Source of the DNA: Minisyncoccota bacterium
GTDB lineage: Bacteria; Patescibacteriota; Minisyncoccia; Phycocordibacterales; UBA9973
DNA: 64,000 bases
NCBI GenBank assembly: GCA_041659205.1
Contig: JBAZYS010000001.1
Span: 123,166-187,165 of the forward strand
Reading direction: 5' to 3'
The notes under the pieces were generated by a model. It was given only the letters and a program-made list of their open reading frames with translations, was not told the origin of the DNA and did no database searches. The position numbers and the translations under genes are program-made. Below, piece by piece: positions 15,713 to 63,306 of this stretch (positions within the stretch are counted from its first letter, which is position 1; each line of letters begins with the position of its first letter).

Positions 15713-15718
15713 ATACTT

Positions 15719-19473: not shown

Positions 19474-19491
19474 CTTTTACTTTTTTTAGGT

Positions 19492-19497
19492 TATAAT
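19492..19497 (+). promoter_or_regulatory. -10 box TATAAT 6 nt upstream of the ATG at 19504 (leaderless).
   Basis: The context is ggtTATAATaaaaatATG. Confidence 0.4.
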
Positions 19498-19503
19498 AAA
19501 AAT

Positions 19504-20178
19504 ATGGAAAATATAAAAAATCATGGTATTTGGGTTATTGGTGCAGTATTATTAGTGTTTTCTTTTCTCTCTTTTGCGGCTGCTCAGAATTTTTCTAAGC
19601 AACAGTCTTATGTAGAGGTGAAAGGTTTATCAGAAAAAATTGTTAAAGCGGATGTTGCTATTTGGTCAATTAATTTTGATGTTAAGTCAAATAACATAGA
19701 TTCTCTCTATGCAGATATTGAAAAAAATACTTCTGCGATAAATTCATTTCTTTTAGCTAAAGGATTTGAGGCATCAGAAATAAATGTTGCTCCAGTAAAC
19801 ATTTATCAGGATACATATAAAGATGCTTTATTTAGGTATAATGCGACTACTCAACTGTCAGTTTACACAAAGAAAGTTGATACAGTTCGTTCTGCTTCCA
19901 AGGATACTTTGATTTTAGTAAAACAAGGTGTTACTTTAAATCAAAATTCAATTGCTTTTGAATTTTCTGATATAAACAGTGTTAAACCAGAAATGCTTGC
20001 AGAAGCTATAAAGAATGCAAAAGATGCAGCCGCTCAGTTTGCAAAAGAGTCGGGATCACATTTGGGTGGTGTTTCTCGGGGGAATCAAGGTGTGTTTGAT
20101 ATTACCGATAAGGATCCTGGTTCTCCTGAATACAAGAAGATTCGTGTAGTTTCTACTCTTAGGTTCCTTTTAAAATAA
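19504..20178 (+). CDS. SIMPL-domain (DUF541/YggE-like) secreted protein.
   Basis: It has an N-terminal signal/TM segment. Its overall pattern, with an oxidative-stress-like beta-rich core, matches the SIMPL family. The assignment is from family sequence features alone. Confidence 0.65.
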   Translation: MENIKNHGIWVIGAVLLVFSFLSFAAAQNFSKQQSYVEVKGLSEKIVKADVAIWSINFDVKSNNIDSLYADIEKNTSAINSFLLAKGFEASEINVAPVNIYQDTYKDALFRYNATTQLSVYTKKVDTVRSASKDTLILVKQGVTLNQNSIAFEFSDINSVKPEMLAEAIKNAKDAAAQFAKESGSHLGGVSRGNQGVFDITDKDPGSPEYKKIRVVSTLRFLLK

Positions 20179-20250: not shown

Positions 20251-20259
20251 TGTTATAAT
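20251..20259 (+). promoter_or_regulatory. Extended -10 TGtTATAAT 7 nt upstream of the ATG at 20267 (leaderless).
   Basis: The context is tgtTATAATacgagatATG. Confidence 0.5.
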
Positions 20260-20266
20260 ACGAGAT

Positions 20267-22897
20267 ATGAATTGGTTCAAACACATTTTTACAAAAAGTA
20301 ATAAAGATAATGAACTGATAGACTCTCTTAAGAAAAATCTTTTTGAAAAATTATACAAATTTGCACAAAATGAACCCAATTTTGCTTTTAATGAATTAAA
20401 TTCAAGAGCAGAGGGATTAAGCAATATTGAGGTAAAAAATAGATTAAAAATATATGGTTCTAATGATATTGCTGATGAAAAAAAGACAAATCATTTTTTG
20501 AAACTATTAAATATTTTAAAAGGACCTTTAAATTTACTACTTTTAGCTTTAGCCCTAGTTTCTTTTTTTGTTGGAGACATGAAGTCTTTTTGGGTAATCA
20601 TTCTAATGGTTTCCCTGAGTGTTGTTTTAAATTTTTATCAAGAAACAAAAGCTGCAATTGCTTCTGATAAGTTAAAACTAATTACGCATACTAAAACTAC
20701 TGTAATTAGAAACAATCTAAAACAGGAGATTCTATTGAGAAACGTTGTCCCGGGTGACGTTATTTATTTGTATTCAGGGACAATTATTCCAGGTGACGTG
20801 AGGTTAATCTCCTCTAAGGATTTATTTATCAATCAAGCGATGCTTACGGGTGAATCATTACCAGTAGAAAAACATGTCGTTGATTCTCTTTTGGACGAGA
20901 AAGGGGCATTAGAATTTTGTAATTTATGTTTTCTTGGTACGAGTGTCGAGTCAGGGGTAGCTACGGCTTTAGTTCTCGCTACAGGCAAAAATACATACTT
21001 GGGAAGTATTGCAACGGACATTGATAAGAATGATAACGTTTCAGATTTTAATAAAGAATTAAAACAATTTGTAATTTTGATTTTGAAATTCATGATAATT
21101 ATGGTGCCAGCTGTTTTCCTTTTAAATGGATTTTTTAAGGGTGATTGGTTTGAAGCATTTATTTTTGCGATTGCCGTCGCTGTCGGGGTTGCTCCTGAGA
21201 TGATACCGACAATCGTGGCTGTAAATTTATCTAAAGGAGCACTGGTTTTGTCAAAAAATAAAGTAATTGTAAAACACTTAGATTCAATAGAAAATCTGGG
21301 TGTGATGGATACATTATGTACAGATAAAACAGGGACACTCACAGAAGGAAAAATAATTTTGGAAAAACATCTAGATATTTATGGAAAAGAGAGTGAAGAA
21401 TCTTTACATTATGCTTTTATAAACAGTTATTTCCAGACAGGAGTTGAAAATATTATAAATGAAGCTATTTTAAAGCATGATGAAGCAAAAGAAAAACTAG
21501 AAATAGTAAATTATTCAAAAATAGATGAAATACCTTTTGATTTCAATAGGAGGAAAATGTCTGTAATCGTTAAAGACAATAAAAAAAATAAATCATTGTT
21601 AGTTTGTACGGGGGCAGTAGAGGAAATTGTTGCGTCTTGTGTAAATGTATTAGTCGATGGGAAAGTTAGTTCTTTGAAGGATTTTAGCAATGAAAAGAAA
21701 TTGTTTATAGAAAAAGAATTAAACGAAGAAGGTTTTCGGGTAGTAGCGGTAGCTTATAAAGAAACAGATATTAATAAAAAAGTATTTAATAAGGGGGATG
21801 AAGAGGACCTTACCTTTGTTGGTTTTTTAGCTTTTTTTGACCCCCCAAAACAAAGCGTTAAAGAGACGATTAAAGAATTGGAAGAAATAGGAGTAAGGGT
21901 AAAGATTCTAACTGGAGACAATGAAATAGTCACTAAAAAAATTTGTGAAGAAGTTGGTATAAAAGTTTCTAAAATACTCCTTGGTAAAGATATTGAAAAA
22001 CTAAGTGATGAAGATCTGGGGAAAGTTGTAGAAGATGTTGTCATTTTTGCAAAATTGTCTCCTTATGATAAAGAAAGAATAATAAAGGGTTTAAGAAATA
22101 GAAATCATGTGGTTGGATTTTTGGGTGATGGAATCAATGACTCTCTTTCTCTTATTGCGGCTGATATCGGTATTTCTGTTGATACTGCAGCTGACATAGC
22201 AAAAGAATCATCAGATTTAATTTTGCTTGAGAAAAGTTTACTTGTTTTAAAAGATGGAATAATTGAGGGAAGGAGAATTTTTGATAATATAATTAAATAT
22301 ATAAAAATGGCTGCTAGCTCAAACTTTGGAAATATGTTTAGCGTGGTGGGTGGAAGTATATTTCTTCCTTTTCTGCCAATGTTGCCAATACAAATTCTTA
22401 CAAATAATATGCTTTACGATTTTTCTCAAATGACGATACCCACAGATAATGTCGATGAAGATCATTTATTAAAGCCAAAAAAGTGGAATTTTAAAAACAT
22501 TAAGCGTTTTATTTTATTTTTCGGTCCAATTAGTTCACTTTTTGATTATGCTACATTTTTTGTTATGCTTTATGTTTTTAATGCCTGGACCAATCCTGAT
22601 CTTTTCCATACTGGGTGGTTCGTGGAATCTCTTCTTACTCAGACTTTGATTGTACATATTATTAGAACTAGTAAAATTCCTATTTTCCAGAGTATGGCGA
22701 GCTGGCCACTTATTGTATCTACATTAAGCGTAATAGGAATAGGAATTTATTTACCATTTTCATCATTTGCAGGAGCGTTTAAATTCTTGCCTTTGCCGCC
22801 ACTTTATTTCGTGTTATTATTTATAGGACTCTTACTATACTTTATAATTACTCAATTCCTTAAAATGTATTTTATTAAAAAATATGAGTGGATTTAG
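20267..22897 (+). CDS. P-type cation-transporting ATPase, MgtA-like (type IIIB, Mg2+-importing) architecture.
   Basis: The phosphorylation motif CTDKTGTLT, the hinge GDGINDS and TGES-type actuator region are present, with 10 TM helices. The track start at 20240 is a TTG; the ATG at 20267 fits the promoter. Confidence 0.85.
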   Translation: MNWFKHIFTKSNKDNELIDSLKKNLFEKLYKFAQNEPNFAFNELNSRAEGLSNIEVKNRLKIYGSNDIADEKKTNHFLKLLNILKGPLNLLLLALALVSFFVGDMKSFWVIILMVSLSVVLNFYQETKAAIASDKLKLITHTKTTVIRNNLKQEILLRNVVPGDVIYLYSGTIIPGDVRLISSKDLFINQAMLTGESLPVEKHVVDSLLDEKGALEFCNLCFLGTSVESGVATALVLATGKNTYLGSIATDIDKNDNVSDFNKELKQFVILILKFMIIMVPAVFLLNGFFKGDWFEAFIFAIAVAVGVAPEMIPTIVAVNLSKGALVLSKNKVIVKHLDSIENLGVMDTLCTDKTGTLTEGKIILEKHLDIYGKESEESLHYAFINSYFQTGVENIINEAILKHDEAKEKLEIVNYSKIDEIPFDFNRRKMSVIVKDNKKNKSLLVCTGAVEEIVASCVNVLVDGKVSSLKDFSNEKKLFIEKELNEEGFRVVAVAYKETDINKKVFNKGDEEDLTFVGFLAFFDPPKQSVKETIKELEEIGVRVKILTGDNEIVTKKICEEVGIKVSKILLGKDIEKLSDEDLGKVVEDVVIFAKLSPYDKERIIKGLRNRNHVVGFLGDGINDSLSLIAADIGISVDTAADIAKESSDLILLEKSLLVLKDGIIEGRRIFDNIIKYIKMAASSNFGNMFSVVGGSIFLPFLPMLPIQILTNNMLYDFSQMTIPTDNVDEDHLLKPKKWNFKNIKRFILFFGPISSLFDYATFFVMLYVFNAWTNPDLFHTGWFVESLLTQTLIVHIIRTSKIPIFQSMASWPLIVSTLSVIGIGIYLPFSSFAGAFKFLPLPPLYFVLLFIGLLLYFIITQFLKMYFIKKYEWI

Positions 22898-31061: not shown

Positions 31062-31070
31062 TGATATAAT
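31062..31070 (+). promoter_or_regulatory. Extended -10 TGaTATAAT 6 nt upstream of the hpf ATG (leaderless).
   Basis: The context is gtgaTATAATtttaatATG. Confidence 0.5.
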
Positions 31071-31076
31071 TTTAAT

Positions 31077-31472
31077 ATGCAAATAAATTTACAAGGAAAG
31101 GGAATGGAATTAACAGAAGCTATTAAAGATTATGTCTTAAAAAGAGTTACTAATTTAGATAAATTACTTTCTGGTATTGAGAAAAGGGGAGGAGAGGTAA
31201 ATGCAAATTTTGAAGTTGTTAAAACTACAAATCATCACAAAGCCGGTGAGATTTTTCACGCAAGTTGCAAAATTAATCTAGATGGTAAAAGTTTTTTTGG
31301 TGAAAGTGATCATGAAGATTTATATAGTGCAATTGATGAGGTGAAAGAAACCCTTTTTAGTGAAATAAGTAAAAGTAAAGACCGCAAACAAACACTTTTT
31401 AAACGTGGAGCCTCGAGTGTTAAGAAAATGTTAAAAGGTCTCTCCAATAGGAATCCTTTTACTTCTAAGTAG
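31077..31472 (+). CDS. hpf: Ribosome hibernation promoting factor / RaiA family protein.
   Basis: The N-terminus MQINLQGKGMELTEAIKDYV matches the HPF/YfiA consensus (M.I.I.G....T.A...YV), and the length is typical of a short HPF. Confidence 0.75.
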   Translation: MQINLQGKGMELTEAIKDYVLKRVTNLDKLLSGIEKRGGEVNANFEVVKTTNHHKAGEIFHASCKINLDGKSFFGESDHEDLYSAIDEVKETLFSEISKSKDRKQTLFKRGASSVKKMLKGLSNRNPFTSK

Positions 31473-34290: not shown

Positions 34291-34899
34291 CTACTGCTGG
34301 ATTTCTGTTTGCTTATAATTACCTGGTAAAATATCTATTTTATTTATTGGTAGTAGGCGAATGAAAGCTCTTCCGGTGAGAAGATTCCTTTTAACAGCTC
34401 CCCAGTATCTAGAATCGGAGCTCGCTCCTCTGTTGTCACCCATGACGAAATATTCATCATTTTTTAATTCAAAGTGAGTTTCATTATTTGCGGGATTTTT
34501 TACGAAAGGTTGGTCGATTTTTAAAATTGTTGTTTTATCTTCTTTTGTTATTGTTACATCATTGCCTTTTATGTCCACTGTCTCATTCGGAAGACCGATA
34601 ATTCTTTTAATAAAGAATTTTGTTGTGTCGCCTGGATATCGGAAAACCACCACATCATCTCTTTTTGGATCACCTAATTTATAAGATACTTTATCTACAA
34701 TTAAATAATCTCCATTTGCAAACGTTGGTACCATCGAGCTTCCTGAAACAATAAATGGCTCAGCGATGAAAACACGTATTGGGACTACGACGATTAATGC
34801 TATAAATGCAAAGCGTACGAGCTCCCAAAACGATTGCATTTTTGTTTTTTCCTTTACTGATTGTATAGGAAAATCTATTTTTTCTTGTTCCATCGTCAT
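34291..34899 (-). CDS. lepB: Signal peptidase I.
   Basis: SGSSMVPTF (catalytic Ser), GDNRGASSDSRYWG and an N-terminal TM are present. A TGcTATACT box abuts the first ATG, so translation probably starts at the ATG at 34893 (leaderless). Confidence 0.85.
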   Translation of the reverse strand: MTMEQEKIDFPIQSVKEKTKMQSFWELVRFAFIALIVVVPIRVFIAEPFIVSGSSMVPTFANGDYLIVDKVSYKLGDPKRDDVVVFRYPGDTTKFFIKRIIGLPNETVDIKGNDVTITKEDKTTILKIDQPFVKNPANNETHFELKNDEYFVMGDNRGASSDSRYWGAVKRNLLTGRAFIRLLPINKIDILPGNYKQTEIQQ

Positions 34900-34982
34900 A
34901 GTATAGCAGATAAAATCCTTGACAGGTTACTTATATTTGTTTTCTAATAAATTAGAAAAATCTTTAAAGTATAATTTTTTTT

Positions 34983-35087: not shown

Positions 35088-35096
35088 TGTTATTAT
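35088..35096 (+). promoter_or_regulatory. Extended -10 TGtTATTAT 7 nt upstream of the pth ATG (leaderless).
   Basis: The context is gtgtgtTATTATatgaaatATG. Confidence 0.45.
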
Positions 35097-35103
35097 ATGA
35101 AAT

Positions 35104-35643
35104 ATGAAATTAGTTGTTGGTTTAGGAAATCCTGGGAAAGAGTATGAGAATACAAGGCATAATGCTGGACGGATTTTAGTGGGCTTAATTGAGATGAAAT
35201 TCGAAAAAGAGGGTGAAAAAAAGAAAATCAAATTTCTTACCCCTGATACTTTTATGAATAATTCTGGTAAAGCTGTTGCTCCTCTGATAAAAGCGAAAAA
35301 AGATTTGAAAGAGTTGATTGTAGTTTACGATGATATTGATTTGCCACTCGGGAAGATAAAAATTTCTTTTAATCGTTCTTCGGGGGGACATAATGGCCTT
35401 GCCTCTGTTATTAAGTCTGTAAAGAGTGAAGAATTTTTAAGAATAAGAATAGGCATCACGCCAGCCACAGCAAATGGTAGATTGAAAAAACCGAGAGGGG
35501 AGAAAGATGTTTTGAAATTTTTGCTTGGTGAATTTAGAAAACCAGAACTAGAAATACTGAAGAAATTATCTAAAAAAGTCGCTGATGCTGTTGAAACTAT
35601 CTTTGCTGAAGGTAAAGATAAAGCAATGAGTTTGTATAATTAA
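35104..35643 (+). CDS. pth: Peptidyl-tRNA hydrolase.
   Basis: MKLVVGLGNPGKEYENTRHNAG is the canonical Pth N-terminus, with the catalytic His in HNAG. Confidence 0.9.
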   Translation: MKLVVGLGNPGKEYENTRHNAGRILVGLIEMKFEKEGEKKKIKFLTPDTFMNNSGKAVAPLIKAKKDLKELIVVYDDIDLPLGKIKISFNRSSGGHNGLASVIKSVKSEEFLRIRIGITPATANGRLKKPRGEKDVLKFLLGEFRKPELEILKKLSKKVADAVETIFAEGKDKAMSLYN

Positions 35644-35676: not shown

Positions 35677-35698
35677 AATAAGTTGAAAGGAGGCTCCT

Positions 35699-39000: not shown

Positions 39001-39231
39001 ACGATTTGCTACATATGCTTCCACTCCGATGATAGGTTTGATACCAGCTTTTTTGGCTAATTTATAAAACTCTATAGCTCCGTACATATTGCCATGGTCA
39101 GTGATGGCTATTGCCGGCATTTCGAATTTTTTGGCTAGGTCAACCAAATTTTCGAGCTTGGAAAGCCCATCCAATAGTGAGTAGTGGCTGTGGGTATGGA
39201 GATGTATGAATTTAGGTTCTTCTGCCGGCAT
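36016..39231 (-). CDS. dnaE: DNA polymerase III alpha subunit.
   Basis: The N-terminal PHP domain ([14 protein letters not shown]), the polymerase core and an OB-fold C-terminus are present, total 1071 aa. Confidence 0.9.
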
Positions 39232-39237
39232 TTTTCT

Positions 39238-39246
39238 ATAATAGCA
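39238..39246 (-). promoter_or_regulatory. Extended -10 TGcTATTAT 6 nt upstream of the dnaE ATG (leaderless).
   Basis: The reverse complement of 39238-39246 is tgcTATTAT, and the spacer is agaaaa. Confidence 0.5.
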
Positions 39247-39274
39247 TATTTTCTTTTGTTGTTTTATTTACTTT

Positions 39275-39283
39275 TGCTATAAT
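39275..39283 (+). promoter_or_regulatory. Extended -10 TGcTATAAT 6 nt upstream of the gap ATG (leaderless). It sits back-to-back with the dnaE promoter.
   Basis: The context is tgcTATAATgtaaatATG. Confidence 0.5.
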
Positions 39284-39289
39284 GTAAAT

Positions 39290-40333
39290 ATGAAAAAAAT
39301 ACGAGTTGGAATTAATGGTTTCGGCAGAATAGGAAGAGCTTTTTTAAAGATTGCTTATGAGCGTCCCGAAATTGAGGTGGTGGCAGTAAATGACCTTGGT
39401 GATATTGAGAACATGGCTTATTTGCTTAAATATGACACGGTTTACAGGCAGTGGAACCATGATATTAAAGTTGAAGGAGATGGTGTTGTCATTGATGGTA
39501 AAAAAGTAAAAGTTCTAGCGCAAAAAGATCCAACGCTTCTTCCTTGGAAAGATTTAGACATTGATGTGGTTGTAGAGTCCACTGGACTTTTTACTTCTTA
39601 TGACAAAGCGAAAGTTCACTTGGATGCTGGAGCAAAAAAAGTCGTTATCTCTGCACCCGCGAAAGACGGAGACCTGCCTGCGCAGGCAGGTGGAACGGTA
39701 TCAGGGGAAACAATCTTGATGGGCGTAAATGAAGAAAAGTTCGGCACTTGTGATATTTCTTCGAATGGATCTTGCACTACTAATGCTACTAGTCCGCTTA
39801 TGGCAATACTTCATGAGGCAATAGGAATTGAAAAAGCTATGTTGAATACAACTCATTCTTATACAGGAACTCAGGGTATCGTCGATGGGCCAAATAAAAA
39901 AGATTTTCGTGAAGGACGCGCAGCAGCGCAGAATCTTGTGCCTGCTTCGACGGGCGCTGCTATATCTGTTACCAAGGCAATATCTGAATTAGCTGGTAAA
40001 TTTGATGGAGTAGCCGTGAGAGTTCCTACTGTTTGCGGTTCAATAAATAATGTAACTTTTATTTCAAAGAGAGACACCACAGTTGAAGAGGTAAATGATA
40101 TATTACGAAAAGCAGCGAAAGATTCTCGTTGGAAAAATGTTTTTGATGTGGTGGAAGAACCAGTCGTTTCCAGTGACATGCTGGGCAACACTCATGCTTC
40201 AGTAGCTGACCTTCTTTTGACAAAGGTTATTGATGGAAATCTAGTAAGTGTAATGGCTTGGTATGACAACGAAATGGGGTATACTTATACTCTAGTAGAT
40301 CATGTTATTAAAACAGGAAATACGATAAAATAA
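39290..40333 (+). CDS. gap: Glyceraldehyde-3-phosphate dehydrogenase (type I).
   Basis: RVGINGFGRIGR (NAD binding) and SNGSCTTN (the active-site Cys region) are present. Confidence 0.9.
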   Translation: MKKIRVGINGFGRIGRAFLKIAYERPEIEVVAVNDLGDIENMAYLLKYDTVYRQWNHDIKVEGDGVVIDGKKVKVLAQKDPTLLPWKDLDIDVVVESTGLFTSYDKAKVHLDAGAKKVVISAPAKDGDLPAQAGGTVSGETILMGVNEEKFGTCDISSNGSCTTNATSPLMAILHEAIGIEKAMLNTTHSYTGTQGIVDGPNKKDFREGRAAAQNLVPASTGAAISVTKAISELAGKFDGVAVRVPTVCGSINNVTFISKRDTTVEEVNDILRKAAKDSRWKNVFDVVEEPVVSSDMLGNTHASVADLLLTKVIDGNLVSVMAWYDNEMGYTYTLVDHVIKTGNTIK

Positions 40334-40702: not shown

Positions 40703-41506
40703 TTACTTCATTTCTCCTTTAAATACACACACAGCAGGACCAGTGAGCCAGATGTTTTCGTAAGTCCCATTTTTATTTTTTTCAAATTCTACCTTGAGGT
40801 CTCCTCCAGGCATTTTAATATGACAAATATTATCTTTCAAAATTCCCAAGTGGTGGGAAGCGACAGCTACAGAGCAAGCTCCTGTTCCACAAGCTAAAGT
40901 TTCATCTTCTACTCCGCGTTCATATGTACGGACATGAAAAACTCCATCCTTATGTTCTACATAATTTATGTTTACTCCTTTTGGATTTTTTCCATTGTCA
41001 CGAATTTTTTGTGCTTCTGTGCAGACAGGGTAATTTTCAATGTTTTCTATGTATTGGATATGGTGAGGGGTTGTGCCTGAATGTAAAAAGGTTAAATCGT
41101 TCTGGATACTAATCTCGGATACATCTTGCATTTTTAGCTTTATGAGTCCACTTTTTAATATTTCTGCTTCGTGTTCGCCGTCTATGGCAATGAATTTTAT
41201 TTTTTTAGGATTCCCGCCATGGCGAGCAGGTTTAATAATTTTTAAAATATTATTGGCAAAGTGCACAAGACAGCGTCCACCATTGCCGCACATGGGGCCC
41301 ATCGAACCATCATTATTTATAAAAACCATTTTGAAGTCATAACCTTTTTGTTTCTCTAGGAGTATTATACCATCAGCCCCCACACCAAAACGTCTATGGC
41401 ACAGTAGCTTTATTTTTTCCACATCATAAATATCAAACTTTTTATCACGATTATCTATCATGACAAAGTCATTTCCGGCACCATGATATTTGTAAAATTT
41501 AAGCAT
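40703..41506 (-). CDS. dapF: Diaminopimelate epimerase.
   Basis: HGAGNDFV, the two catalytic-Cys regions (MCGNGGRC and ACGTGACS) are present. A leaderless TATAAT box lies at 41513-41518 (rc). Confidence 0.85.
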   Translation of the reverse strand: MLKFYKYHGAGNDFVMIDNRDKKFDIYDVEKIKLLCHRRFGVGADGIILLEKQKGYDFKMVFINNDGSMGPMCGNGGRCLVHFANNILKIIKPARHGGNPKKIKFIAIDGEHEAEILKSGLIKLKMQDVSEISIQNDLTFLHSGTTPHHIQYIENIENYPVCTEAQKIRDNGKNPKGVNINYVEHKDGVFHVRTYERGVEDETLACGTGACSVAVASHHLGILKDNICHIKMPGGDLKVEFEKNKNGTYENIWLTGPAVCVFKGEMK

Positions 41507-41582
41507 GTTTTGATTATACCCCGTAGTAAAATTTTTCTCAAAATTTACTACTGGGCAGGCTATATTTATTCTTTTTTAAAAA

Positions 41583-41591
41583 TGTTATTAT
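41583..41591 (+). promoter_or_regulatory. Extended -10 TGtTATTAT 7 nt upstream of the rpiB ATG (leaderless).
   Basis: The context is tgtTATTATattagatATG. Confidence 0.45.
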
Positions 41592-41598
41592 ATTAGAT

Positions 41599-42081
41599 AT
41601 GAAGATATATATTGGCTCGGATCATGTAGGGTATGAACTAAAAGAAAAACTTAAAATATACTTTAGTGAGCTTGGTAATGCCGTAGAAGATAAAGGTGCT
41701 CTTAATTATGATGAAAATGATGATTATCCGGACTTTATAACTCCTGTAGCGCAAGCTGTTGCGGGGGAAGCTCTGAGCTTCGGAATTATATTGGGTGGTT
41801 CAGGTCAAGGCGAAGCAATGTGTGCTAATAGAGTGCATGGTGCACGAGCTGCTGTATTTTATGGAGAAGCCTTACCGAAGGACACTATCGATATAAAAGG
41901 TAAAAAAAGCATAGACCCTTTTGAAATTATAAAACTTGCTCGCATTCACAACAATGCAAATATCTTATCTTTAGCGGTGCGATTCTTGTCTGAAGATGAA
42001 ATAAAATTTGCGATAGAACTTTTTATGTCTACAAAATTTGAAGGTGAAGAAAGACACGTTCGAAGAATTAATAAATTTTAA
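41599..42081 (+). CDS. rpiB: Ribose-5-phosphate isomerase B (RpiB/LacAB family).
   Basis: The N-terminus MKIYIGSDHVGYELK and GGSGQGEAMCANRVHGARAA are present. Confidence 0.85.
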   Translation: MKIYIGSDHVGYELKEKLKIYFSELGNAVEDKGALNYDENDDYPDFITPVAQAVAGEALSFGIILGGSGQGEAMCANRVHGARAAVFYGEALPKDTIDIKGKKSIDPFEIIKLARIHNNANILSLAVRFLSEDEIKFAIELFMSTKFEGEERHVRRINKF

Positions 42082-42084
42082 TAT

Positions 42085-42783
42085 ATGGCTGAAATAACTC
42101 CAGCGATTTTAGAAAAAGATTATGGCGAAATAAAGAACAAGCTTACTTTTTTGCGTGGGCGAGTGAAAACCGTGCAGCTTGATATTTGTGACGGTATTTT
42201 TGTTGAAAATCAAACTTGGCCTTTTGCAACGGGCGGTTTTGATGACCATGATTTTGTTAAAATTTTAAATGAAGAAGAGGGTTTGCCATTTTGGACTGAT
42301 TTTGATTTTGAGTTTGATTTAATGGTAGCAGATGCTGTAGAAAATTTTGAAACTTATATGAAGCTCGGACCCAAAAGAATGATTTTTCATTTAAGCGCCC
42401 AGAAGGATTTGAAAGAATTCGAGGATTTCTTGGAAGGATTGGATATGTATATACGAGATAACGTGGAAATAGGGCTTGCTTTCAAACCTAGTGATGATTT
42501 GAGTATTGTTTCTAAATTCTCACATAAGGTTGATTTCTTGCAGTGTATGGGTTCTGACAAGATAGGTCACCAAGGTGAAGTATTTTCTATTAAAGCATTA
42601 GAAAATATAAAATATTTTAAAACAAATTTTCCTGGAATTGTAATGTCTGTAGATATAGGAATTAATTTAAAAAATGCGGAAGAGTTGCTTGATGCTGGTG
42701 TGGACAGGCTTACAGTAGGTTCTGGTATTTGGAAAAGTTCTGATCCGATTGACGCTTTAGAAAATTTTCAAAGCTTGGTATAG
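42085..42783 (+). CDS. Ribulose-phosphate 3-epimerase-like TIM-barrel protein (divergent).
   Basis: The pattern ITPAIL..D......VQLDICDGIFV.N.T..., FDLMV and a C-terminal VDIG...AGVDRLTVGSGIW parallels the RPE consensus. The sequence is divergent, so this is a family-level call only. Confidence 0.55.
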   Translation: MAEITPAILEKDYGEIKNKLTFLRGRVKTVQLDICDGIFVENQTWPFATGGFDDHDFVKILNEEEGLPFWTDFDFEFDLMVADAVENFETYMKLGPKRMIFHLSAQKDLKEFEDFLEGLDMYIRDNVEIGLAFKPSDDLSIVSKFSHKVDFLQCMGSDKIGHQGEVFSIKALENIKYFKTNFPGIVMSVDIGINLKNAEELLDAGVDRLTVGSGIWKSSDPIDALENFQSLV

Positions 42784-42864
42784 TATAATTAATACAATGC
42801 TTTTAACTGAAGATAACCCCGAAGGAAAGCAAAGCTTCCTACGGGGCAAGAATTTTAGAATATT

Positions 42865-43710
42865 ATGTCTTACTTAACAGATGAACAAATAAAAGATTTA
42901 GAGAAAAAAGCGAATGATATTCGTATATCTATTATTGAAATGCTTGTAGAAGCAAAGTCTGGACATACCGCAGGGCCACTCGGTATGGCAGATATTTTTA
43001 CACTTTTTTATTTCCACATTCTAAAACATGACCCAAAGAATCCATCTTGGGAAGAGCGTGACAGGTTAGTGCTTTCAAATGGACACATTTGTCCGGTACT
43101 TTATTCCACGATGGCGCATGCTGGATATTTTCCCGTAAAAGAATTAATGACTTTAAGAAAATTCGGCACTAGACTTCAAGGACATCCTCACAGAGAATAT
43201 TTGCCTTATGTTGAGAATTCTTCCGGGCCTCTGGGCTCTGGGCTTTCACAGGCTGTGGGTATGGCGCTCGCTGATAAAATGGATAAAAAAGAAAATGATA
43301 GATATATATATTGTTTTATGTCTGATGGAGAAATGGATGAAGGGAATACCTGGGAAGCAATAATGCTTGCGGGGAAACATAAATTACATAATTTGATTGC
43401 AGTTGTTGATAGAAACAATATTCAAATAGAGGGAGTCACCGAAGACATTATGCCCCTTGAACCTTTTCATGCAAAATGGAAATCTTTTAATTGGCATGTG
43501 ATAGAAGTTTCTGGACATGATTTTAGGTCATTAAATGAAGTAATAGAAGAAGCTCAAGCAGTCTATGAGAAGCCAACAGTTATCATTGCGCATACAATAC
43601 CAGGGAAAGGCGTAAAAGAATTTGAGAAAAATTATAAATGGCATGGTAAACCACCAACAAAAGAAGAAGGGAAAATGGCATTAAAAGAATTAAGAAATAA
43701 TAGATACTAA
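42865..43710 (+). CDS. Transketolase N-terminal (thiamine-diphosphate-binding) subunit of a split transketolase.
   Basis: GHTAGPLGMADIF, the ThDP motif GDGEMDEG (here SDGEMDEGNTWEA) and NNIQIEG are present. It is a separate gene from the C-terminal part. Confidence 0.85.
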   Translation: MSYLTDEQIKDLEKKANDIRISIIEMLVEAKSGHTAGPLGMADIFTLFYFHILKHDPKNPSWEERDRLVLSNGHICPVLYSTMAHAGYFPVKELMTLRKFGTRLQGHPHREYLPYVENSSGPLGSGLSQAVGMALADKMDKKENDRYIYCFMSDGEMDEGNTWEAIMLAGKHKLHNLIAVVDRNNIQIEGVTEDIMPLEPFHAKWKSFNWHVIEVSGHDFRSLNEVIEEAQAVYEKPTVIIAHTIPGKGVKEFEKNYKWHGKPPTKEEGKMALKELRNNRY

Positions 43711-44812: not shown

Positions 44813-45808
44813 TTAGAGTTTTTCTGCTTTGTAGCTTTCAGGAGCCTTAGACAAATATTCCTCTAGTTTTTCTTTTGAAAGGAGTCCTTTTTGAGCACCA
44901 ATTTCTTGAACCACAGACATAGAATTTATGGGTGCCCAAGCGAAGGCTTCAAGTGGAGTTTTACCTAAAGCTAGTGCTGCAGTAAATGTGGAAGAAAAAG
45001 CATCTCCAGCCCCAGTACGGTCTAGAGGAGGAGCGATGTCAGGATATACTGGCATGTGATAGAGTTCATCATTCAAATACAGATAAGCACCATTTGGCCC
45101 GTCAGAAATTACAACTATTTTAGGACCTAAAGCTTGCATCCCTTTCGATAAAGTTAAGATGTCATTGCTGGGTATACCAAGAATCTTTTCAGCTTCTTCC
45201 ATATTACAGAAAAATATTTCGGTTCTACTATAAATGTCTTTTAATTTTTCTGCACCTAGTTTTATCTGGAAAGTTCCTGGTTGGAAAGCGAGCTTTGTTT
45301 CGGGATGATTTTTTAAATATTCTGCTATTTCTAAATGGTAATCTAGGGAATTTTCTGCGAGGGAACTCAAGTATATCCAGCCAACTTTTTCTATTTTTGG
45401 GAATTTATAATTAAATTTTTCATGTTTGATTAATATTGTACGGTCAACATTGTACCAGAGTACATAATGATAGTTTGTATTTTTATCTTTTTCGATTGTG
45501 ACATAGTCGGTGATGACATTGTCATTTTTTAAACTAACTATGCAATCTTCTCCATTTTTATCATTTCCGATATTTGTAATGACGGCGGAGCGCAGACCAA
45601 GTCTAGCAGCTGACACAGCAGCATTTGGACTATTTCCTACTGCGGGAACAATGGTGACAGATTCATAAGGAACCTTGTCTCCGAAACGGACACAAAGTTC
45701 ACGTGTGCCGTGGTCCAACATTTCTTCTGCATCTTTTAGTCGTATAAAAGCATCTATGACAATATCCCCAATTGCTAGGAAATCTATTTTATTTTCATTA
45801 GTAGTCAT
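44813..45808 (-). CDS. PfkB-family (ribokinase-like) carbohydrate kinase.
   Basis: The C-terminal GAGDAF motif and the N-terminal di-glycine region LAIGDIVIDAF are present. A leaderless TGcTACAAT box lies at 45815-45823 (rc). Confidence 0.8.
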   Translation of the reverse strand: MTTNENKIDFLAIGDIVIDAFIRLKDAEEMLDHGTRELCVRFGDKVPYESVTIVPAVGNSPNAAVSAARLGLRSAVITNIGNDKNGEDCIVSLKNDNVITDYVTIEKDKNTNYHYVLWYNVDRTILIKHEKFNYKFPKIEKVGWIYLSSLAENSLDYHLEIAEYLKNHPETKLAFQPGTFQIKLGAEKLKDIYSRTEIFFCNMEEAEKILGIPSNDILTLSKGMQALGPKIVVISDGPNGAYLYLNDELYHMPVYPDIAPPLDRTGAGDAFSSTFTAALALGKTPLEAFAWAPINSMSVVQEIGAQKGLLSKEKLEEYLSKAPESYKAEKL

Positions 45809-45851
45809 GATAATATTGTAGCATATTATAAAATATTAAAAAATTTTCATA

Positions 45852-52457: not shown

Positions 52458-52466
52458 TGTTATAAT
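52458..52466 (+). promoter_or_regulatory. Extended -10 TGtTATAAT 6 nt upstream of the ATG at 52473 (leaderless). This supports 52473 rather than 52455 as the ABC gene start.
   Basis: The context is tgtTATAATtgcgaaATG. Confidence 0.5.
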
Positions 52467-52472
52467 TGCGAA

Positions 52473-54230
52473 ATGTTCGTGAAAAAGCTTTTTCATCATA
52501 TTTGGCCACAGATTAATAAATACAAATGGTCTTTTTATCTGACATTTGTTTTTTATGCTATTAGAATATTTTTTGGATCTGTTCTTAATGTTTATTTTTT
52601 CAAGAAAATAATTGATGTCATGTCCAATCCTTCTTTTTCGAGGGAGGTTTTAGCTGCGCAGCTTATTTATCTTGTTATTTTAAATATTTTGATAATGGTT
52701 GGTGGAAATATTTTTTCTCGTCTTGGAGCTTGGAGTATTGTTTATTTTCAGAGCAATATGATGCGAGAACTTTCGGATTATTCTTTTAGACAAATAATAA
52801 AGAATTCTTACGGTTTTTTTTCTAATAATTTTTCTGGTAGCCTAGTGACCAAGTCTAGGCGCTTTGTGCGGGCCTTTGAGGTAATGCATGATACGCTTAT
52901 TTTTAATTTTTGGGGAACATTTATTGTATTAACGGGTGTTTTTATGGTTCTTTTTACGCAGGCACCATTTATTGCTTCAATCTTTTTATCCTGGGTTTTT
53001 GTTTACATTATAATTGTCTCCTTTTTCATCAAAAAAAGAATGAGCTACGATATTGCTAAGGCTGCTGCCGACTCAAGGGTTGGGGGGAGACTAGCTGATG
53101 TTTTTTCAAATGTATTTGCTCTAAAGGTTTTTTCTGCGGGAGAAAAAGAAAAAGTTTCTTTTGGTGAAGTTACTCGCAATGAAGAAGAACATCGAAATAA
53201 TTCTTGGTATTTTGGAAACAAACAAGATACTTTACAAGCAGGACTAATGACAATAATCCAAGCTTTTGTTTTGTATCTAATTATAAAACTTTGGATTGCT
53301 GGTTCTATGAATACAGGTACTGTTGTTCTGATTCAAACTTATATGATAATGATTTTTGAGAGATTGTGGGACCTTGGTAAAGCAACGACAAAATTTATGG
53401 AATCTGCTGCTGATATGAAGGAAGTCATAGATATTTTTGAAATTGTGCCAGATATTAAGGACCCAGAAGTTCCTGAGCCACTGAGGATGAAAACCGGGAA
53501 TATTGAGTTTAAAGATGTTTCTTTTGTTTATGCTTCTGGCCAACATGTTTTTAATAATTTTAATTTGAAAATAAAACCTGGGGAAAGGGTTGGTATTGTT
53601 GGTCATTCTGGTGCTGGAAAGACAACAGTTACTAAATTACTTTTAAGGTTTATCGATGTATCTTCTGGTGTGATAGAAATCGATGGACAGGATGTCCGTA
53701 CAGTTTTACAAGATGATTTAAGAAGAGTAATTTCTTATGTTCCCCAAGAGCCAATTTTATTTCACAGAAGTATTAGAGAAAATATTGCTTATGGTGAACC
53801 CGACGCCACCATCGAACAAATAATTGAGGCTGCTCAAAAAGCGCATGCGGATGAGTTTATAAAGAATTTTAAATACGGATATGATACTCTTGTCGGTGAG
53901 CGGGGAGTAAAACTTTCTGGTGGAGAAAGACAGAGAATAATAATTGCTCGTGCAATGTTGAAAAATTCTCCCGTGCTTGTGTTAGATGAAGCTACTAGTT
54001 CACTTGATAGTATTAGTGAGTCATATATCCAAAATGCTTTTAGTGAATTGATGAAAGGTAAGACAACCATTGTGATTGCCCATCGTCTTTCTACTGTGCA
54101 AAAAATGGACAGAATAATTGTCCTTGATGAAGGTGTGATTGTAGAAGATGGAACACATAAGGAATTATTAGAAAAAGGTGGTGTTTATGCCAATTTATGG
54201 AATCACCAAACAGGCGGATTTTTAAATTAA
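52473..54230 (+). CDS. ABC exporter with fused transmembrane and ATPase domains (MsbA-like half-transporter).
   Basis: There are six N-terminal TM helices. Walker A GHSGAGKTT, the signature LSGGERQR, and Walker B VLVLDEATS are all present. Confidence 0.85.
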   Translation: MFVKKLFHHIWPQINKYKWSFYLTFVFYAIRIFFGSVLNVYFFKKIIDVMSNPSFSREVLAAQLIYLVILNILIMVGGNIFSRLGAWSIVYFQSNMMRELSDYSFRQIIKNSYGFFSNNFSGSLVTKSRRFVRAFEVMHDTLIFNFWGTFIVLTGVFMVLFTQAPFIASIFLSWVFVYIIIVSFFIKKRMSYDIAKAAADSRVGGRLADVFSNVFALKVFSAGEKEKVSFGEVTRNEEEHRNNSWYFGNKQDTLQAGLMTIIQAFVLYLIIKLWIAGSMNTGTVVLIQTYMIMIFERLWDLGKATTKFMESAADMKEVIDIFEIVPDIKDPEVPEPLRMKTGNIEFKDVSFVYASGQHVFNNFNLKIKPGERVGIVGHSGAGKTTVTKLLLRFIDVSSGVIEIDGQDVRTVLQDDLRRVISYVPQEPILFHRSIRENIAYGEPDATIEQIIEAAQKAHADEFIKNFKYGYDTLVGERGVKLSGGERQRIIIARAMLKNSPVLVLDEATSSLDSISESYIQNAFSELMKGKTTIVIAHRLSTVQKMDRIIVLDEGVIVEDGTHKELLEKGGVYANLWNHQTGGFLN

Positions 54231-56673: not shown

Positions 56674-56738
56674 CTTTATTTTGGCCCCCTGCGAGGACTG
56701 CGATTTTAACAGCTTTTGCAAAGCTAAAAAATCGGGAG

Positions 56739-56744
56739 TATAAT
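56739..56744 (+). promoter_or_regulatory. TATAAT box 6 nt upstream of the ATG at 56751 (leaderless).
   Basis: The context is gggagTATAATaaagctATG. Confidence 0.4.
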
Positions 56745-56750
56745 AAAGCT

Positions 56751-57758
56751 ATGAAAATAGTCTTTTTTGAGGTGTCAAAAGCAGAGCAGTCATTTTTTGC
56801 AGAGTCACTTGGTGGTGCGGAAGTTTCTTTTTTTGAAGAAAAATTAAATGAAAATAGTATAGAGAAAGCAAAAGATGCTGACGTTGTCTGTATCTTTGTT
56901 GTTTCTTTGGTAAATAAAAATGTTATCGATGCATTACCTAATTTAAAATTTATTGCTACTCGTTCGACGGGTTTTGACCACATTGATCATGCCTATGCAG
57001 AAACAAAAGGAATAAAAGTTTCTAACGTGCCTGCTTATGGTTCTCATACAGTAGCTGAGTTTGCTTTTACGTTGATGTTAAGTCTCTCAAGAAAAATCAT
57101 TAAAGCAAATAATCATATTACGGAAGAACTAGATTTTAATTATTCAAAGGATATGGAAGGTTTTGATTTACATGGAAAGATTTTGGGAGTCGTCGGTACA
57201 GGGAAAATTGGCAAAAATGTTGTAAAAATTGCTAAAGGTTTTGAAATGGAGGTAATTGCTTATGATTTGTATCCAGACTTAGCTTTCGCTAAAGAAAATA
57301 ATTTTACATATAAAAGTTTAACAGACGTCGTCTCTCTGGCAGATATTATCACTCTGCATGCTCCTTGTTGTATGGAAAATATTCACTTAATTAATAAAGA
57401 AAATATTTCTTTGATGAAAAAAGGAGTTTATCTGATTAATACAGCTCGGGGAGAACTCGTTGATACAGAAGCATTAATCTGGGGTTTGAAAGAGGGAATT
57501 ATCGCAGGAGCGGGAATAGATGTTTTGGAAAATGAAAAACAACTCAAAGATGAAAAGAGCTTTTTAACTAGCGGTAAGGCTACCGAAGAAGAAAAAACAA
57601 GTATTTTAATTAACCACGAATTGATGAAAATGCCCAACGTCATTGTTACTCCCCATATTGCCTTTGATACAAAGGAAGCCATAGCTTTAATTTTAAAAAC
57701 AACTGCAGATAATATCCAAGGTTTTTTAAGCAATATTCCAATAAATTTAATTAAATAA
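56751..57758 (+). CDS. D-isomer-specific 2-hydroxyacid dehydrogenase (glycerate/hydroxypyruvate-reductase or D-lactate dehydrogenase-like).
   Basis: The NAD-binding GKILGVVGTGKIGKNV...D motif and the catalytic R/E/H arrangement typical of the D-2-hydroxyacid dehydrogenase family are present. It is adjacent to glycerate kinase. Confidence 0.8.
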   Translation: MKIVFFEVSKAEQSFFAESLGGAEVSFFEEKLNENSIEKAKDADVVCIFVVSLVNKNVIDALPNLKFIATRSTGFDHIDHAYAETKGIKVSNVPAYGSHTVAEFAFTLMLSLSRKIIKANNHITEELDFNYSKDMEGFDLHGKILGVVGTGKIGKNVVKIAKGFEMEVIAYDLYPDLAFAKENNFTYKSLTDVVSLADIITLHAPCCMENIHLINKENISLMKKGVYLINTARGELVDTEALIWGLKEGIIAGAGIDVLENEKQLKDEKSFLTSGKATEEEKTSILINHELMKMPNVIVTPHIAFDTKEAIALILKTTADNIQGFLSNIPINLIK

Positions 57759-63233: not shown

Positions 63234-63306
63234 TATGACTATAATCTAGCATACAAAAAGCCTATTTGGAATTGGTTTTTTTTATGTTTTATGCTAAATT
63301 ATAAAC

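What the first reader, a model, noticed from the sequence alone, without database searches (positions are those of the whole stretch)
39232..39289. Near-universal leaderless gene starts: a (TGn)TATAAT box 6-7 nt before the ATG.
At least 12 genes in this window have a -10 hexamer, often with the TGn extension, placed so that the predicted +1 is the A of the start codon. They are dnaE and gap (back-to-back here), the 15719 ORF, the SIMPL gene, the P-type ATPase, hpf, lepB, pth, dapF, rpiB, the PfkB kinase, the ABC exporter and the 2-hydroxyacid dehydrogenase. No Shine-Dalgarno site is present at any of these. The spacing is far too regular to be chance. It implies that leaderless translation initiation is the default mode in this organism, which is characteristic of some reduced genomes. 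It also re-sets several start codons (ABC exporter 52473, ATPase 20267, lepB 34893).
Basis: seen in the sequence. Interest (0 to 1): 0.55.

Follow-up and report, generated by a model that had tools for sequence, protein, structure and literature searches.

The report
Leaderless gene starts in a Nomurabacteria genome
In this ultra-small groundwater-type bacterium (Candidate Phyla Radiation), about 60% of transcription units have a promoter -10 box placed so that the mRNA should begin at the AUG, and no ribosome-binding (Shine-Dalgarno) sites are used; this gene-start style is known from other bacteria but I found no report of it for this group.

Summary
All 13 named genes carry TAnnnT (10 of 13 with TGn) 6-7 nt before an ATG. 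TATAAT-N6-ATG occurs 8 times against 1.4 expected.

The window is a Ca. Nomurabacteria-like (Paceibacteria, CPR) genome. The pattern holds across the clade in 160 related loci:
- 36% of all TGnTATAAT boxes sit exactly 6 nt before an ATG.
- 59% of first genes in close relatives show it, against 6-10% at decoy spacings.
- It is conserved in orthologues (dnaE 62/76, pth 50/55, lepB 47/55) although the spacer sequence varies.

Independent promoter marks accompany the box: a weak TTG -35 at 17 bp, TG at -15/-14, and a pyrimidine at -1. The peak is specific to ATG.

Shine-Dalgarno motifs are at or below background. Two relatives' 16S rRNAs lack CCUCC, which is already published for about half of Parcubacteria.

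"Near-universal" overstates the case. About one third of genes, or about 60% of unit heads, are leaderless-type. The rest are tightly packed, SD-less internal genes, probably translated by reinitiation.

No transcription start sites have been mapped. This is a new member of a known kind (GeneMarkS-2 "group C"-like, but low-GC and without SD).

The parts
39229..39246 (-). dnaE leaderless-type start: TGc TATTAT (39243-39238), spacer agaaaa, ATG 39231-39229
   Evidence: The Pfam PHP domain starts at residue 10. 62 of 76 orthologues keep a -10 box 6-8 nt before the ATG.
39275..39292 (+). gap leaderless-type start: TGc TATAAT (39278-39283), spacer gtaaat, ATG 39290. Weak -35 TTGTTG at 39256-39261.
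   Evidence: Pfam Gp_dh_N starts at residue 4. 35 of 49 orthologues keep the arrangement.
15704..15721 (+). TGa TATAAT N6 ATG 15719 (130-aa ORF, no family match)
19489..19506 (+). TATAAT N6 ATG 19504 (SIMPL/DUF541 protein), no TG extension
   Evidence: 4 of 8 family members keep the arrangement.
20251..20269 (+). TGt TATAAT N7 ATG 20267 (P-type ATPase). The longest-ORF TTG at 20240 lies upstream of the -10 box.
31062..31079 (+). TGa TATAAT N6 ATG 31077 (hpf). The promoter sits in and just after the 3' end of the upstream gene.
   Evidence: 31 of 40 orthologues keep it, with free variation of the 6-nt spacer.
34891..34908 (-). TGc TATACT N6 ATG 34893 (lepB, head of the lepB-hisS-def-fmt operon). 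The ATG at 34899 abuts the -10 box.
   Evidence: 47 of 55 orthologues keep it, and their N-termini start ME(E/Q), matching 34893.
35088..35106 (+). TGt TATTAT N7 ATG 35104 (pth)
   Evidence: 50 of 55 orthologues keep it.
41504..41521 (-). TATAAT N6 ATG 41506 (dapF), no TG extension
   Evidence: 7 of 10 orthologues keep it.
41583..41601 (+). TGt TATTAT N7 ATG 41599 (rpiB)
   Evidence: 25 of 43 orthologues keep it.
45806..45823 (-). TGc TACAAT N6 ATG 45808 (PfkB-family kinase)
   Evidence: 32 of 40 orthologues keep it.
52458..52475 (+). TGt TATAAT N6 ATG 52473 (ABC exporter). The longest-ORF TTG at 52455 is just upstream of the box.
56736..56753 (+). TATAAT N6 ATG 56751 (D-2-hydroxyacid dehydrogenase), -35 TTGCAA at 17 bp
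   Evidence: 3 of 3 family members keep it.
63292..63309 (+).
42781..42877 (+). Additional case: TATAAT (42784-42789) N7 ATG 42797 opens a 26-codon leaderless mini-ORF. Its peptide, MLLTED..., copies the transketolase N-terminus. It contains a palindromic element and stops at 42875-42877, 13 nt past the first base of the annotated transketolase ATG (42865).

Best explanation
These are sigma-70 promoters of the extended -10 class: TGn + TAnnnT, with only a vestigial TTG -35 element. They sit directly in front of start codons, so RNA polymerase should start the transcript at, or 1 nt before, the A of the AUG. The resulting mRNAs have no 5' leader and cannot carry a ribosome-binding site. The ribosome, loaded with fMet-tRNA, would recognise the 5'-terminal AUG itself.

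This organism is a Ca. Nomurabacteria-like member of the Paceibacteria (CPR). Here and in its relatives this is the main way the first gene of a transcription unit is expressed, at roughly 60% of unit heads. SD/anti-SD pairing is not used for native genes. Downstream genes are packed within a few nucleotides of the preceding stop codon behind A-rich, G-poor sequence. They are most likely translated by ribosomes that reinitiate after termination.

Shown: the sequence architecture, its statistics, its conservation, the absence of SD motifs, and the loss of CCUCC in two relatives' 16S rRNA.

Inferred: the transcription start positions, the initiation mechanism, and the anti-SD state of this particular organism.
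For: (1) Position, without any annotation. In 80 dnaE loci of relatives, 87 of 242 TGnTATAAT boxes have ATG at spacing 6 and 27 at spacing 7, against about 3 at other spacings. 76 of the 87 open ORFs of at least 100 codons. An independent set of 80 metagenome loci around the PPDK gene replicates this: 51 of 164 at spacing 6.

(2) Gene-based counts. 344 of 645 unit heads have the arrangement, against 41-52 at three decoy spacings. With TGn the figures are 253 against 4-10. Close relatives show 276 of 471 heads.

(3) The signal does not come from a few syntenic promoters. 109 of 395 protein families have at least one member with the arrangement (decoys 38-47). 17 of 34 families with at least 5 members show it in at least 50% of members (decoys 0-1).

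(4) Orthologues keep the spacing while the spacer sequence varies freely.

(5) Promoter hallmarks that were only partly (TG) or not at all (-35, -1) used for selection appear in the family-weighted profile. T is 73% and G 66% at the TG positions. TTG lies exactly 17 bp upstream of the hexamer. 71% of sites have a pyrimidine at -1 before the A.

(6) The peak is specific to ATG: 270 ATG against 8 GTG, 3 TTG and 0 CTG at spacing 6.

(7) Pfam profiles align from residues 1-4 of the proposed proteins.

(8) SD absence. GGAGG occurs 0 times at -20..-5 of 469 closely spaced internal genes. SD 4-mers are at or below control frequency. G drops to 6-10% near start codons.

(9) The 16S 3' tails of relatives L074 and L079 read AAUAAUUCAAUU where the Rfam consensus has AUCACCUCCUUU. 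On these same two contigs 6 of 12 and 11 of 15 heads are leaderless-type.

(10) Literature. The anti-SD motif was detected in only 48% of Parcubacteria, and bS21 is often absent (PMC9297842). Campbellbacteria and Wolfebacteria are listed as 'SD-scarce, lacking CCUCC' (PMC10783764).

(11) 360 of 812 same-strand gene pairs are 10 nt or less apart or overlap.

(12) Where a palindromic element separates a leaderless ATG from the gene body, the leaderless mini-ORF ends -4 to +13 nt from the main ATG in 4 of 5 cases. This fits reinitiation.

(13) fmt and def, which make and remove the formyl group of the initiator Met, are present in the window.
Against: - No experimental transcription start sites exist for this organism or any close relative, so +1 = A is inferred from the usual -10-to-start distance.
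- For the spacing-7 and spacing-8 cases a 1-2 nt leader is equally possible.
- The anti-SD status of the window's own organism is unknown. No 16S rRNA is in the window or in the 158 other loci. About half of Parcubacteria keep the motif.
- Three small ORFs in the window have perfect AAGGAGG-N5-6-ATG sites. This could mean the ribosome still reads SD sequences, although these ORFs are GC-rich (43-52% against 36%) and absent from relatives.
- About 40% of unit heads lack the arrangement and appear to have SD-less leaders of 20-40 nt, for example 13130, 17779 and 47382. Leaderless initiation is therefore not the only entry route.
- A classical -35/-10 scanner finds no promoter in the dnaE-gap spacer, because the -35 elements are weak.
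Confidence: 0.8

Rival explanations
1. The TATAAT-like box is an AT-rich, non-SD translation signal within a longer leader. This would resemble the A-rich 'Kozak-like' context of Bacteroidetes (GeneMarkS-2 group B). On this reading transcription starts further upstream.
For: The genome is SD-free, and the region upstream of all genes is A/T-rich and G-poor, as in Bacteroidetes. TA-rich 5-mers are enriched before internal genes.
Against: - The box is concentrated at unit heads (53%) and rarer at internal genes (18%, against a background of about 6%). A group B motif precedes all genes (PMC6028130).
- It carries TG at -15/-14 and a TTG exactly 17 bp upstream. These are RNA-polymerase contacts, not ribosome contacts.
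- The 58-bp dnaE-gap spacer has no room for other promoters.
- The spacing peak is 1 nt sharp.
Confidence: 0.06
2. The boxes are real promoters, but the mRNAs are not strictly leaderless. Either transcription starts a few nucleotides away from the A, or the ATG next to the box is not the codon used and translation begins at a downstream ATG after a short leader.
For: - Spacings of 7-8 nt occur in about a third of cases.
- -10-to-start distances vary between species.
- In the transketolase gene and in four dnaE orthologues the promoter-adjacent ATG opens only a short ORF, and the protein starts further down.
Against: - The peak is specific to ATG, which would not be needed if that codon were unused.
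- Most of the ATGs open the full-length ORF (76 of 87).
- Pfam profiles align from residues 1-4.
- Orthologous N-termini coincide with the promoter-adjacent ATG.
Confidence: 0.12
3. Chance in an AT-rich genome: TATAAT-like hexamers are common, and some fall before ATGs.
For: The window holds 94 TATAAT and 3316 TAnnnT hexamers on the two strands.
Against: - 0 of 100 shuffles reach the observed count.
- The excess over neighbouring spacings is about 30-fold in 160 related loci.
- The arrangement is conserved in orthologues.
Confidence: 0.01

Closest known systems
Leaderless-rich bacteria of GeneMarkS-2 'group C' (Mycobacterium, Streptomyces, Corynebacterium, Deinococcus)
   Same: A TAnnnT Pribnow box lies 6-8 nt before the start codon of the first gene in the operon. 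A large fraction of operons is affected: 25-50% is predicted in group C, and leaderless starts were confirmed by dRNA-seq in M. tuberculosis and D. deserti (PMC6028130).
   Different: - Group C genomes still use SD sites for internal and leadered genes. Here SD motifs are absent.
- Code-11 group C genomes are almost all high-GC (bioRxiv 10.1101/2022.07.25.500264). This lineage is 28-45% GC.
- The leaderless fraction here (about 60% of heads) is at or above the top of the group C range.
- The promoters carry a strong TGn extension.
- Leaderless starts here are ATG only. That GTG also serves in mycobacteria is from my own knowledge, not tested here.
Mycoplasma genomes classed as group C (genetic code 4)
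   Same: Low-GC, reduced genomes with 30-60% of transcripts predicted to be leaderless.
   Different: Those genomes keep SD-type RBS models for other genes and use code 4. Here TGA acts as a stop codon (the long ORFs and Pfam-confirmed genes were read with table 11) and no SD is used.
Anti-SD-less / SD-scarce Parcubacteria described by Tsurumaki et al. 2022 (RNA 28:1041) and in PLoS One 2024 (PMC10783764)
   Same: Same broad clade. The 16S 3' tail lacks CCUCC, which I verified for two relatives. SD motifs are scarce. bS21 is often missing according to the paper.
   Different: Those papers describe the ribosome side only. Neither was returned by the searches pairing 'leaderless' with Patescibacteria or candidate phyla radiation. 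The only passages on leaderless mRNA that I saw in PMC10783764 concern archaea and Flavobacteriia. The -10-box/ATG architecture that would explain how such cells start translation does not appear there.
Bacteroidetes (Flavobacterium johnsoniae) SD-independent initiation
   Same: Native mRNAs lack SD. The region upstream of start codons is A-rich and G-poor (PMC6847099 abstract).
   Different: Bacteroidetes keep the anti-SD and use leadered mRNAs. Here promoters abut the start codon, and at least some relatives have lost the anti-SD.
Archaeal (Haloferax, Sulfolobus) and mammalian mitochondrial leaderless mRNAs
   Same: Leaderless mRNA is a dominant class, with little or no reliance on SD pairing. 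Nanoarchaeia also lack CCUCC.
   Different: The promoter type differs: a TATA/BRE box lies about 22-26 nt upstream in archaea. The initiation factors also differ. The mitochondrial comparison rests on general knowledge and was not tested here.

Membership tests
Bacterial leaderless-type gene organisation (GeneMarkS-2 group C) | Pribnow-type TAnnnT box localised 6-8 nt upstream of the start codon of first genes in operons | tested here: met
   There is a sharp peak at spacing 6-7 in the window and in 160 related loci. 344 of 645 heads show it, against 41-52 at decoy spacings.
Bacterial leaderless-type gene organisation (GeneMarkS-2 group C) | A substantial share of operons (about 25-50%) is affected | tested here: met
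   12 of 19 heads in the window and 276 of 471 in close relatives.
Bacterial leaderless-type gene organisation (GeneMarkS-2 group C) | Remaining (internal or leadered) genes carry SD-type ribosome-binding sites | tested here: not met
   SD 4-mers occur in 7.0% of internal genes against 11.7% in the control window. GGAGG occurs 0 times in 469 internal genes.
Bacterial leaderless-type gene organisation (GeneMarkS-2 group C) | Primary transcript 5' ends mapped at the start codon (5' UTR of 0-5 nt) | not testable with these tools
   No transcript data are available, and the library searches returned no paper on leaderless transcripts in CPR.
Extended -10 (TGn) sigma-70 promoters | TG dinucleotide one base upstream of the -10 hexamer | tested here: met
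   10 of 13 sites in the window. T is 73% and G 66% in the family-weighted profile.
Extended -10 (TGn) sigma-70 promoters | Weak or dispensable -35 element at a spacer of about 17 bp | tested here: met
   Only TTG is enriched, exactly 17 bp upstream of the hexamer. The classical scanner, which needs 4 of 6 matches in the -35, finds nothing in the dnaE-gap spacer.
SD-scarce bacteria lacking the CCUCC anti-SD core (subgroup of Parcubacteria) | No SD enrichment upstream of start codons | tested here: met
   The exceptions are a few GC-rich, apparently foreign ORFs.
SD-scarce bacteria lacking the CCUCC anti-SD core (subgroup of Parcubacteria) | 16S rRNA 3' tail without CCUCC | tested here: inconclusive
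   Met in relatives L074 and L079 (AAUAAUUCAAUU against the consensus AUCACCUCCUUU). No 16S rRNA is available for the window organism or its closer relatives.
Bacteroidetes-type non-SD initiation (GeneMarkS-2 group B) | The same non-SD motif precedes first and internal genes alike, on leadered mRNAs | tested here: not met
   The box is about 3 times more frequent at heads than at internal genes, and it carries promoter marks (TG, -35).

The most novel reading that the evidence does not exclude
This Paceibacteria lineage has given up SD/anti-SD pairing altogether, with the rRNA tail lost as in relatives L074 and L079. The cells would then rely on only two entry routes for ribosomes: recognition of a 5'-terminal AUG set by an extended -10 promoter, and reinitiation at closely spaced downstream cistrons. 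The promoter -10 box would in effect be the start-site selector for translation as well as for transcription. If so, this would be a free-standing bacterial clade with an archaeal- or mitochondrial-style initiation regime. Start codons in thousands of CPR genomes could then be re-annotated from promoter positions. The GC-rich genes with perfect SD sites would be recent imports that cannot yet be read efficiently.
Probability: 0.45. Interest if true: 0.6.

Novelty: new member of a known kind. Interest (0 to 1): 0.45.

Why it matters
CPR/Patescibacteria make up a large share of bacterial diversity, yet almost nothing is known about how they express their genes. Earlier work showed that many Parcubacteria ribosomes lack the anti-SD and bS21, but did not say how start codons are then chosen. 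The -10-box/ATG architecture, together with tight cistron packing, gives a concrete and testable answer.

It also has practical value:
- It fixes start codons, as for lepB, the ABC exporter and the ATPase here.
- It predicts promoters and transcription-unit boundaries in uncultured genomes.
- It gives design rules for expression constructs in the few cultivable CPR.
- It flags foreign genes, which are GC-rich and SD-led.

The phenomenon itself, leaderless-rich bacteria, is well established elsewhere. This extends it to a new clade and a more extreme SD-free state; it does not introduce a new principle.

Tried and rejected
(1) A replacement anti-SD. L074 and L079 share the 16S tail GGAAUAAUUCAAUUU. 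I tested whether 5-mers complementary to it are enriched before non-leaderless genes. They are not, beyond general AT-richness (ratios 0.4-2.5).

(2) Leaderless mini-ORFs as a general coupling device. Mini-ORFs behind TGnTAnnnT-N6/7-ATG that end next to a long ORF are no more frequent than at decoy spacings (17 and 12 against 2-17). Most turned out to be C-terminal ends of upstream genes. The 9-codon ORF at 27689 therefore remains a single case.

(3) Finding the organism's own 16S rRNA.
- Rfam finds only five tRNAs in the window.
- Only 2 of 160 loci contain a 16S 3' end.
- The window's proteins are not in the exact-match contig index.

(4) The classical -35/-10 promoter scanner finds nothing in the dnaE-gap spacer. 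This was expected for extended -10 promoters.

(5) The RNAalifold run on the palindromic element failed because MAFFT right-justified the sequences, so I folded the copies one by one instead. Rfam gives no credible match even at E-value <= 10.

(6) Pfam and PHROGs give no identification for the SD-led small ORFs.

(7) Literature searches pairing 'leaderless' with Patescibacteria, candidate phyla radiation or Saccharibacteria returned nothing on leaderless mRNA in CPR; a min-2-of-5 search that also listed Parcubacteria and Nomurabacteria listed no paper containing the word.

Full report
THE OBSERVATION

The 58-bp spacer between dnaE (minus strand, ATG at 39231) and gap (ATG at 39290) holds two back-to-back boxes. 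They read TGcTATTAT-agaaaa-ATG for dnaE and TGcTATAAT-gtaaat-ATG for gap.

Pfam confirms every gene name. For hpf, pth, dapF, rpiB, gap and the 2-hydroxyacid dehydrogenase the profile aligns from residues 1-4 of the proposed protein.

TATAAT-N6-ATG occurs 8 times against 1.39 expected, and no shuffle out of 100 reaches 8. Seven of the eight open ORFs of at least 100 codons.

With simple gene calls, 12 of 19 transcription-unit heads in the window have the arrangement, against 0-3 at decoy spacings. Fifteen of 46 called genes have it in all. "At least 12 genes" is therefore right, and "near-universal" is not.

THE ORGANISM

DnaE is 76-87% identical to proteins of Ca. Nomurabacteria / Paceibacterota / Patescibacteria genomes assembled from metagenomes. 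The window is 36% GC. It encodes a split transketolase and several giant surface proteins, which I take from general knowledge as common in this group.

CLADE-WIDE TEST

I fetched 80 dnaE loci from species-representative genomes (1.41 Mb). I later fetched 80 loci around the PPDK gene from metagenomes (1.12 Mb).

Without any annotation, 87 of 242 TGnTATAAT boxes in the first set have ATG at spacing 6, 27 at spacing 7, 9 at 8 and 12 at 9. Other spacings have about 3 each. Of the 87, 76 open ORFs of at least 100 codons. In the second set the figure is 51 of 164 at spacing 6.

With gene calls (window plus the 80 dnaE loci), 344 of 645 heads have a -10-like box 6-8 nt before an in-frame ATG, against 41-52 at three decoy spacings. 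With TGn the figures are 253 against 4-10. The breakdown is:
- close relatives: 276 of 471 heads, and 418 of 1013 genes;
- distant relatives (dnaE 64-67% identical): 45 of 129 heads.

The loci are syntenic, so I clustered the proteins to check independence. 109 of 395 families have at least one such member (decoys 38-47). 17 of 34 families with at least 5 members have it in half or more of their members (decoys 0-1).

Orthologues of the window's genes keep the arrangement: dnaE 62/76, pth 50/55, lepB 47/55, gap 35/49, PfkB 32/40, hpf 31/40. Operon-internal genes do not: fmt 3/46, hisS 3/53. Between orthologues the 6-nt spacer changes freely while its length stays fixed.

WHY THESE ARE PROMOTERS

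The family-weighted profile of 504 sites shows features that were only partly or not at all used to select them:
- T 73% and G 66% at the TG positions;
- TTG exactly 17 bp upstream of the hexamer;
- 71% pyrimidine at the position before the A, which is the usual pyrimidine(-1)/purine(+1) start context.

The box is about three times more frequent at heads (53%) than at closely spaced internal genes (18%). The peak is specific to ATG: at spacing 6 there are 270 ATG against 8 GTG, 3 TTG and 0 CTG. This fits the known dependence of leaderless translation on a 5'-terminal AUG. The distance from a -10 hexamer to the transcription start is normally about 7 nt, by established knowledge. A spacing of 6 therefore puts +1 on the A.

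START CODONS

LepB orthologues all begin ME(E/Q)... right after TGnTATATT-N6-ATG. This supports 34893 over 34899, which abuts the box. The TTG codons at 20240 and 52455 lie upstream of or inside the promoter.

SHINE-DALGARNO

SD 4-mers within -20..-4 occur in 7.4% of heads and 7.0% of internal genes, against 5.7% and 11.7% in control windows. GGAGG occurs 0 times in 469 internal genes. G falls to 6-10% just before starts, and A rises to 50-60%.

Two relatives have a 16S 3' end on the fetched contig. Rfam aligns their tail AAUAAUUCAAUU to the consensus AUCACCUCCUUU, so CCUCC is gone. On these same contigs 6 of 12 and 11 of 15 heads are leaderless-type. One distant relative, L073, uses SD (9 of 20 genes) and has few leaderless heads (3 of 17).

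The ribosome side is already published. Tsurumaki et al. 2022 found the anti-SD motif in only 48% of Parcubacteria and frequent loss of bS21 (PMC9297842). A 2024 survey lists Campbellbacteria and Wolfebacteria among SD-scarce organisms lacking CCUCC (PMC10783764). I could not obtain a 16S rRNA for the window's own lineage.

THE OTHER GENES

Of 812 same-strand neighbour pairs, 360 are 10 nt or less apart or overlap. With no SD, the most economical reading is reinitiation by terminating ribosomes. This is an inference.

A natural experiment fits it. In the window's transketolase gene and in dnaE of L023, L036 and L047, a palindromic element separates a leaderless ATG from the gene body. The leaderless mini-ORF then ends -4 to +13 nt from the main ATG. 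The one exception is L062, at +44.

About 21% of closely spaced "internal" genes in close relatives have their own leaderless-type promoter inside the 3' end of the upstream gene. An example is hpf at 31077.

Some heads have SD-less leaders of 20-40 nt, for example 13130, 17779 and 47382. How these are initiated is open.

EXCEPTIONS

Three small ORFs in the window have perfect AAGGAGG-N5-6-ATG sites: 35699, 17378(-) and 17017(-). They are GC-rich (52% and 43%, against 36% for the window) and absent from 80 related loci. One group lies next to a tRNA gene. Relatives hold similar GC-rich, SD-led genes. They look like recent imports. They also leave open that this ribosome can still read SD sequences.

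COMPARISON AND NOVELTY

A Pribnow box 6-8 nt before the first gene of an operon defines GeneMarkS-2 group C: Actinobacteria, Deinococcus and some Mycoplasma, with 25-50% of operons leaderless (PMC6028130). This lineage matches group C in architecture. It differs in having no SD for the remaining genes, in low GC, in strong TGn extensions and in a higher leaderless share.

Searches pairing "leaderless" with Patescibacteria, candidate phyla radiation or Saccharibacteria returned nothing on leaderless mRNA in these bacteria, and a broader search that also listed Parcubacteria and Nomurabacteria found no paper containing the word. Subscription journals are not covered. I rate it a new member of a known kind.

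LIMITS

- There are no transcript or protein data.
- My gene calls are crude (longest ORFs, first ATG).
- The related loci are biased to two genomic neighbourhoods.
- The anti-SD state of this organism is inferred.

Noticed in passing
window 42816-42849 (+), 41518-41558 (+), about 34268-34300 (-); L023, L036, L038, L047 (dnaE 5' end); L062, L072 (transketolase 5' end); L081, L087, L088, L092, L095, L113, L151 (inside enolase): A short GC-rich palindromic element. Its outline is CCCC(G/A)AA, then an inner hairpin, then TACGGGGCA(A/G)G.
- The inner hairpin varies with compensatory changes, for example GGAAAGCAAAGCTTCC, CCAGAGCAAGCTCGG and CCAAAGTGCTTCGCACTTGG.
- All copies fold into the same two-stem hairpin, with z-scores of -2.8 to -4.3. 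There is no Rfam match.
- It occurs in spacers, and in frame inside genes as a 12-residue insert (enolase ELRD-PEPEQARYGAG-ADGKGG).
- It also occurs at gene 5' ends, inside a leaderless mini-ORF that duplicates the gene's own N-terminus, for example MxxKFIHLH...THS followed by [12 protein letters not shown] in dnaE.
- It is reminiscent of Rickettsia palindromic elements. I found no description of it for CPR.
   Followed up: partly
window 35682-35941 (+), 17100-17395 (-), 16808-17034 (-): Three small ORFs (80, 92 and 69 aa) have perfect AAGGAGG sites 5-6 nt before ATG, in a genome that otherwise has no SD.
- They are GC-rich: 52% for the first, and 43% for the island next to the tRNA gene at 16499-16570, against 36% for the window.
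- They have no homologues in 80 related loci.
- They have no Pfam or PHROGs identity, apart from a weak zinc-ribbon hint.
- Relatives carry similar GC-rich, SD-led genes.
They are probably recent horizontal imports.
   Followed up: partly
window 27674-27720 (+): TGaTATAGT-N6-ATG (27689) opens a 9-codon ORF, MLLLVAMNI. Its TAA stop overlaps the ATG of the 1112-aa beta-propeller protein gene at 27718 (TAATG). It could be a leaderless coupling mini-ORF. A general search showed no enrichment of such mini-ORFs over decoy spacings, and this gene has no orthologue in the loci.
   Followed up: partly
L074 21205-21260 (-), L079 (-) near the locus end: Two rather different relatives (40% and 30% GC) share the identical non-canonical 16S 3' tail GGAAUAAUUCAAUUUGAAA. 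This suggests that the new tail is itself conserved. 5-mers complementary to it are not specifically enriched upstream of genes.
   Followed up: partly
L073 (whole locus): A distant relative (dnaE 65% identical, 44% GC) has SD-like sites before 9 of 20 genes and only 3 of 17 leaderless-type heads. It is a natural contrast lineage for dating the switch away from SD.
   Followed up: partly
window 31062-31079; also seen across L001-L063: About a fifth of genes lying less than 25 nt behind another gene on the same strand have their own leaderless-type promoter embedded in the 3' end of the upstream gene (79 of 379, against 15-24 at decoy spacings). Many apparent operons may therefore be nested or separate transcription units.
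   Followed up: partly
window 204-13030, 27718-31056, 45852-52403: There is a run of very large predicted surface proteins of 1461, 1568, 1226, 1112 and 1676 aa, plus a 481-aa protein with LTD and PKD domains. They carry NHL/beta-propeller, lamin-tail, PKD and endosialidase-chaperone (Peptidase_S74) domains, and one has no Pfam match at all. The 1568-, 1112- and 1676-aa genes and the 481-aa LTD/PKD gene lack the leaderless arrangement; the 1226-aa gene is operon-internal and the 1461-aa ORF starts too near the window edge to judge.
   Followed up: no
window 39290-40333, 60298-62712: Exact-sequence look-ups of two window proteins found no record in the large contig index. The best relatives in both nucleotide collections are no more than 90% identical. 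This genome itself therefore seems absent from the searchable collections.
   Followed up: no
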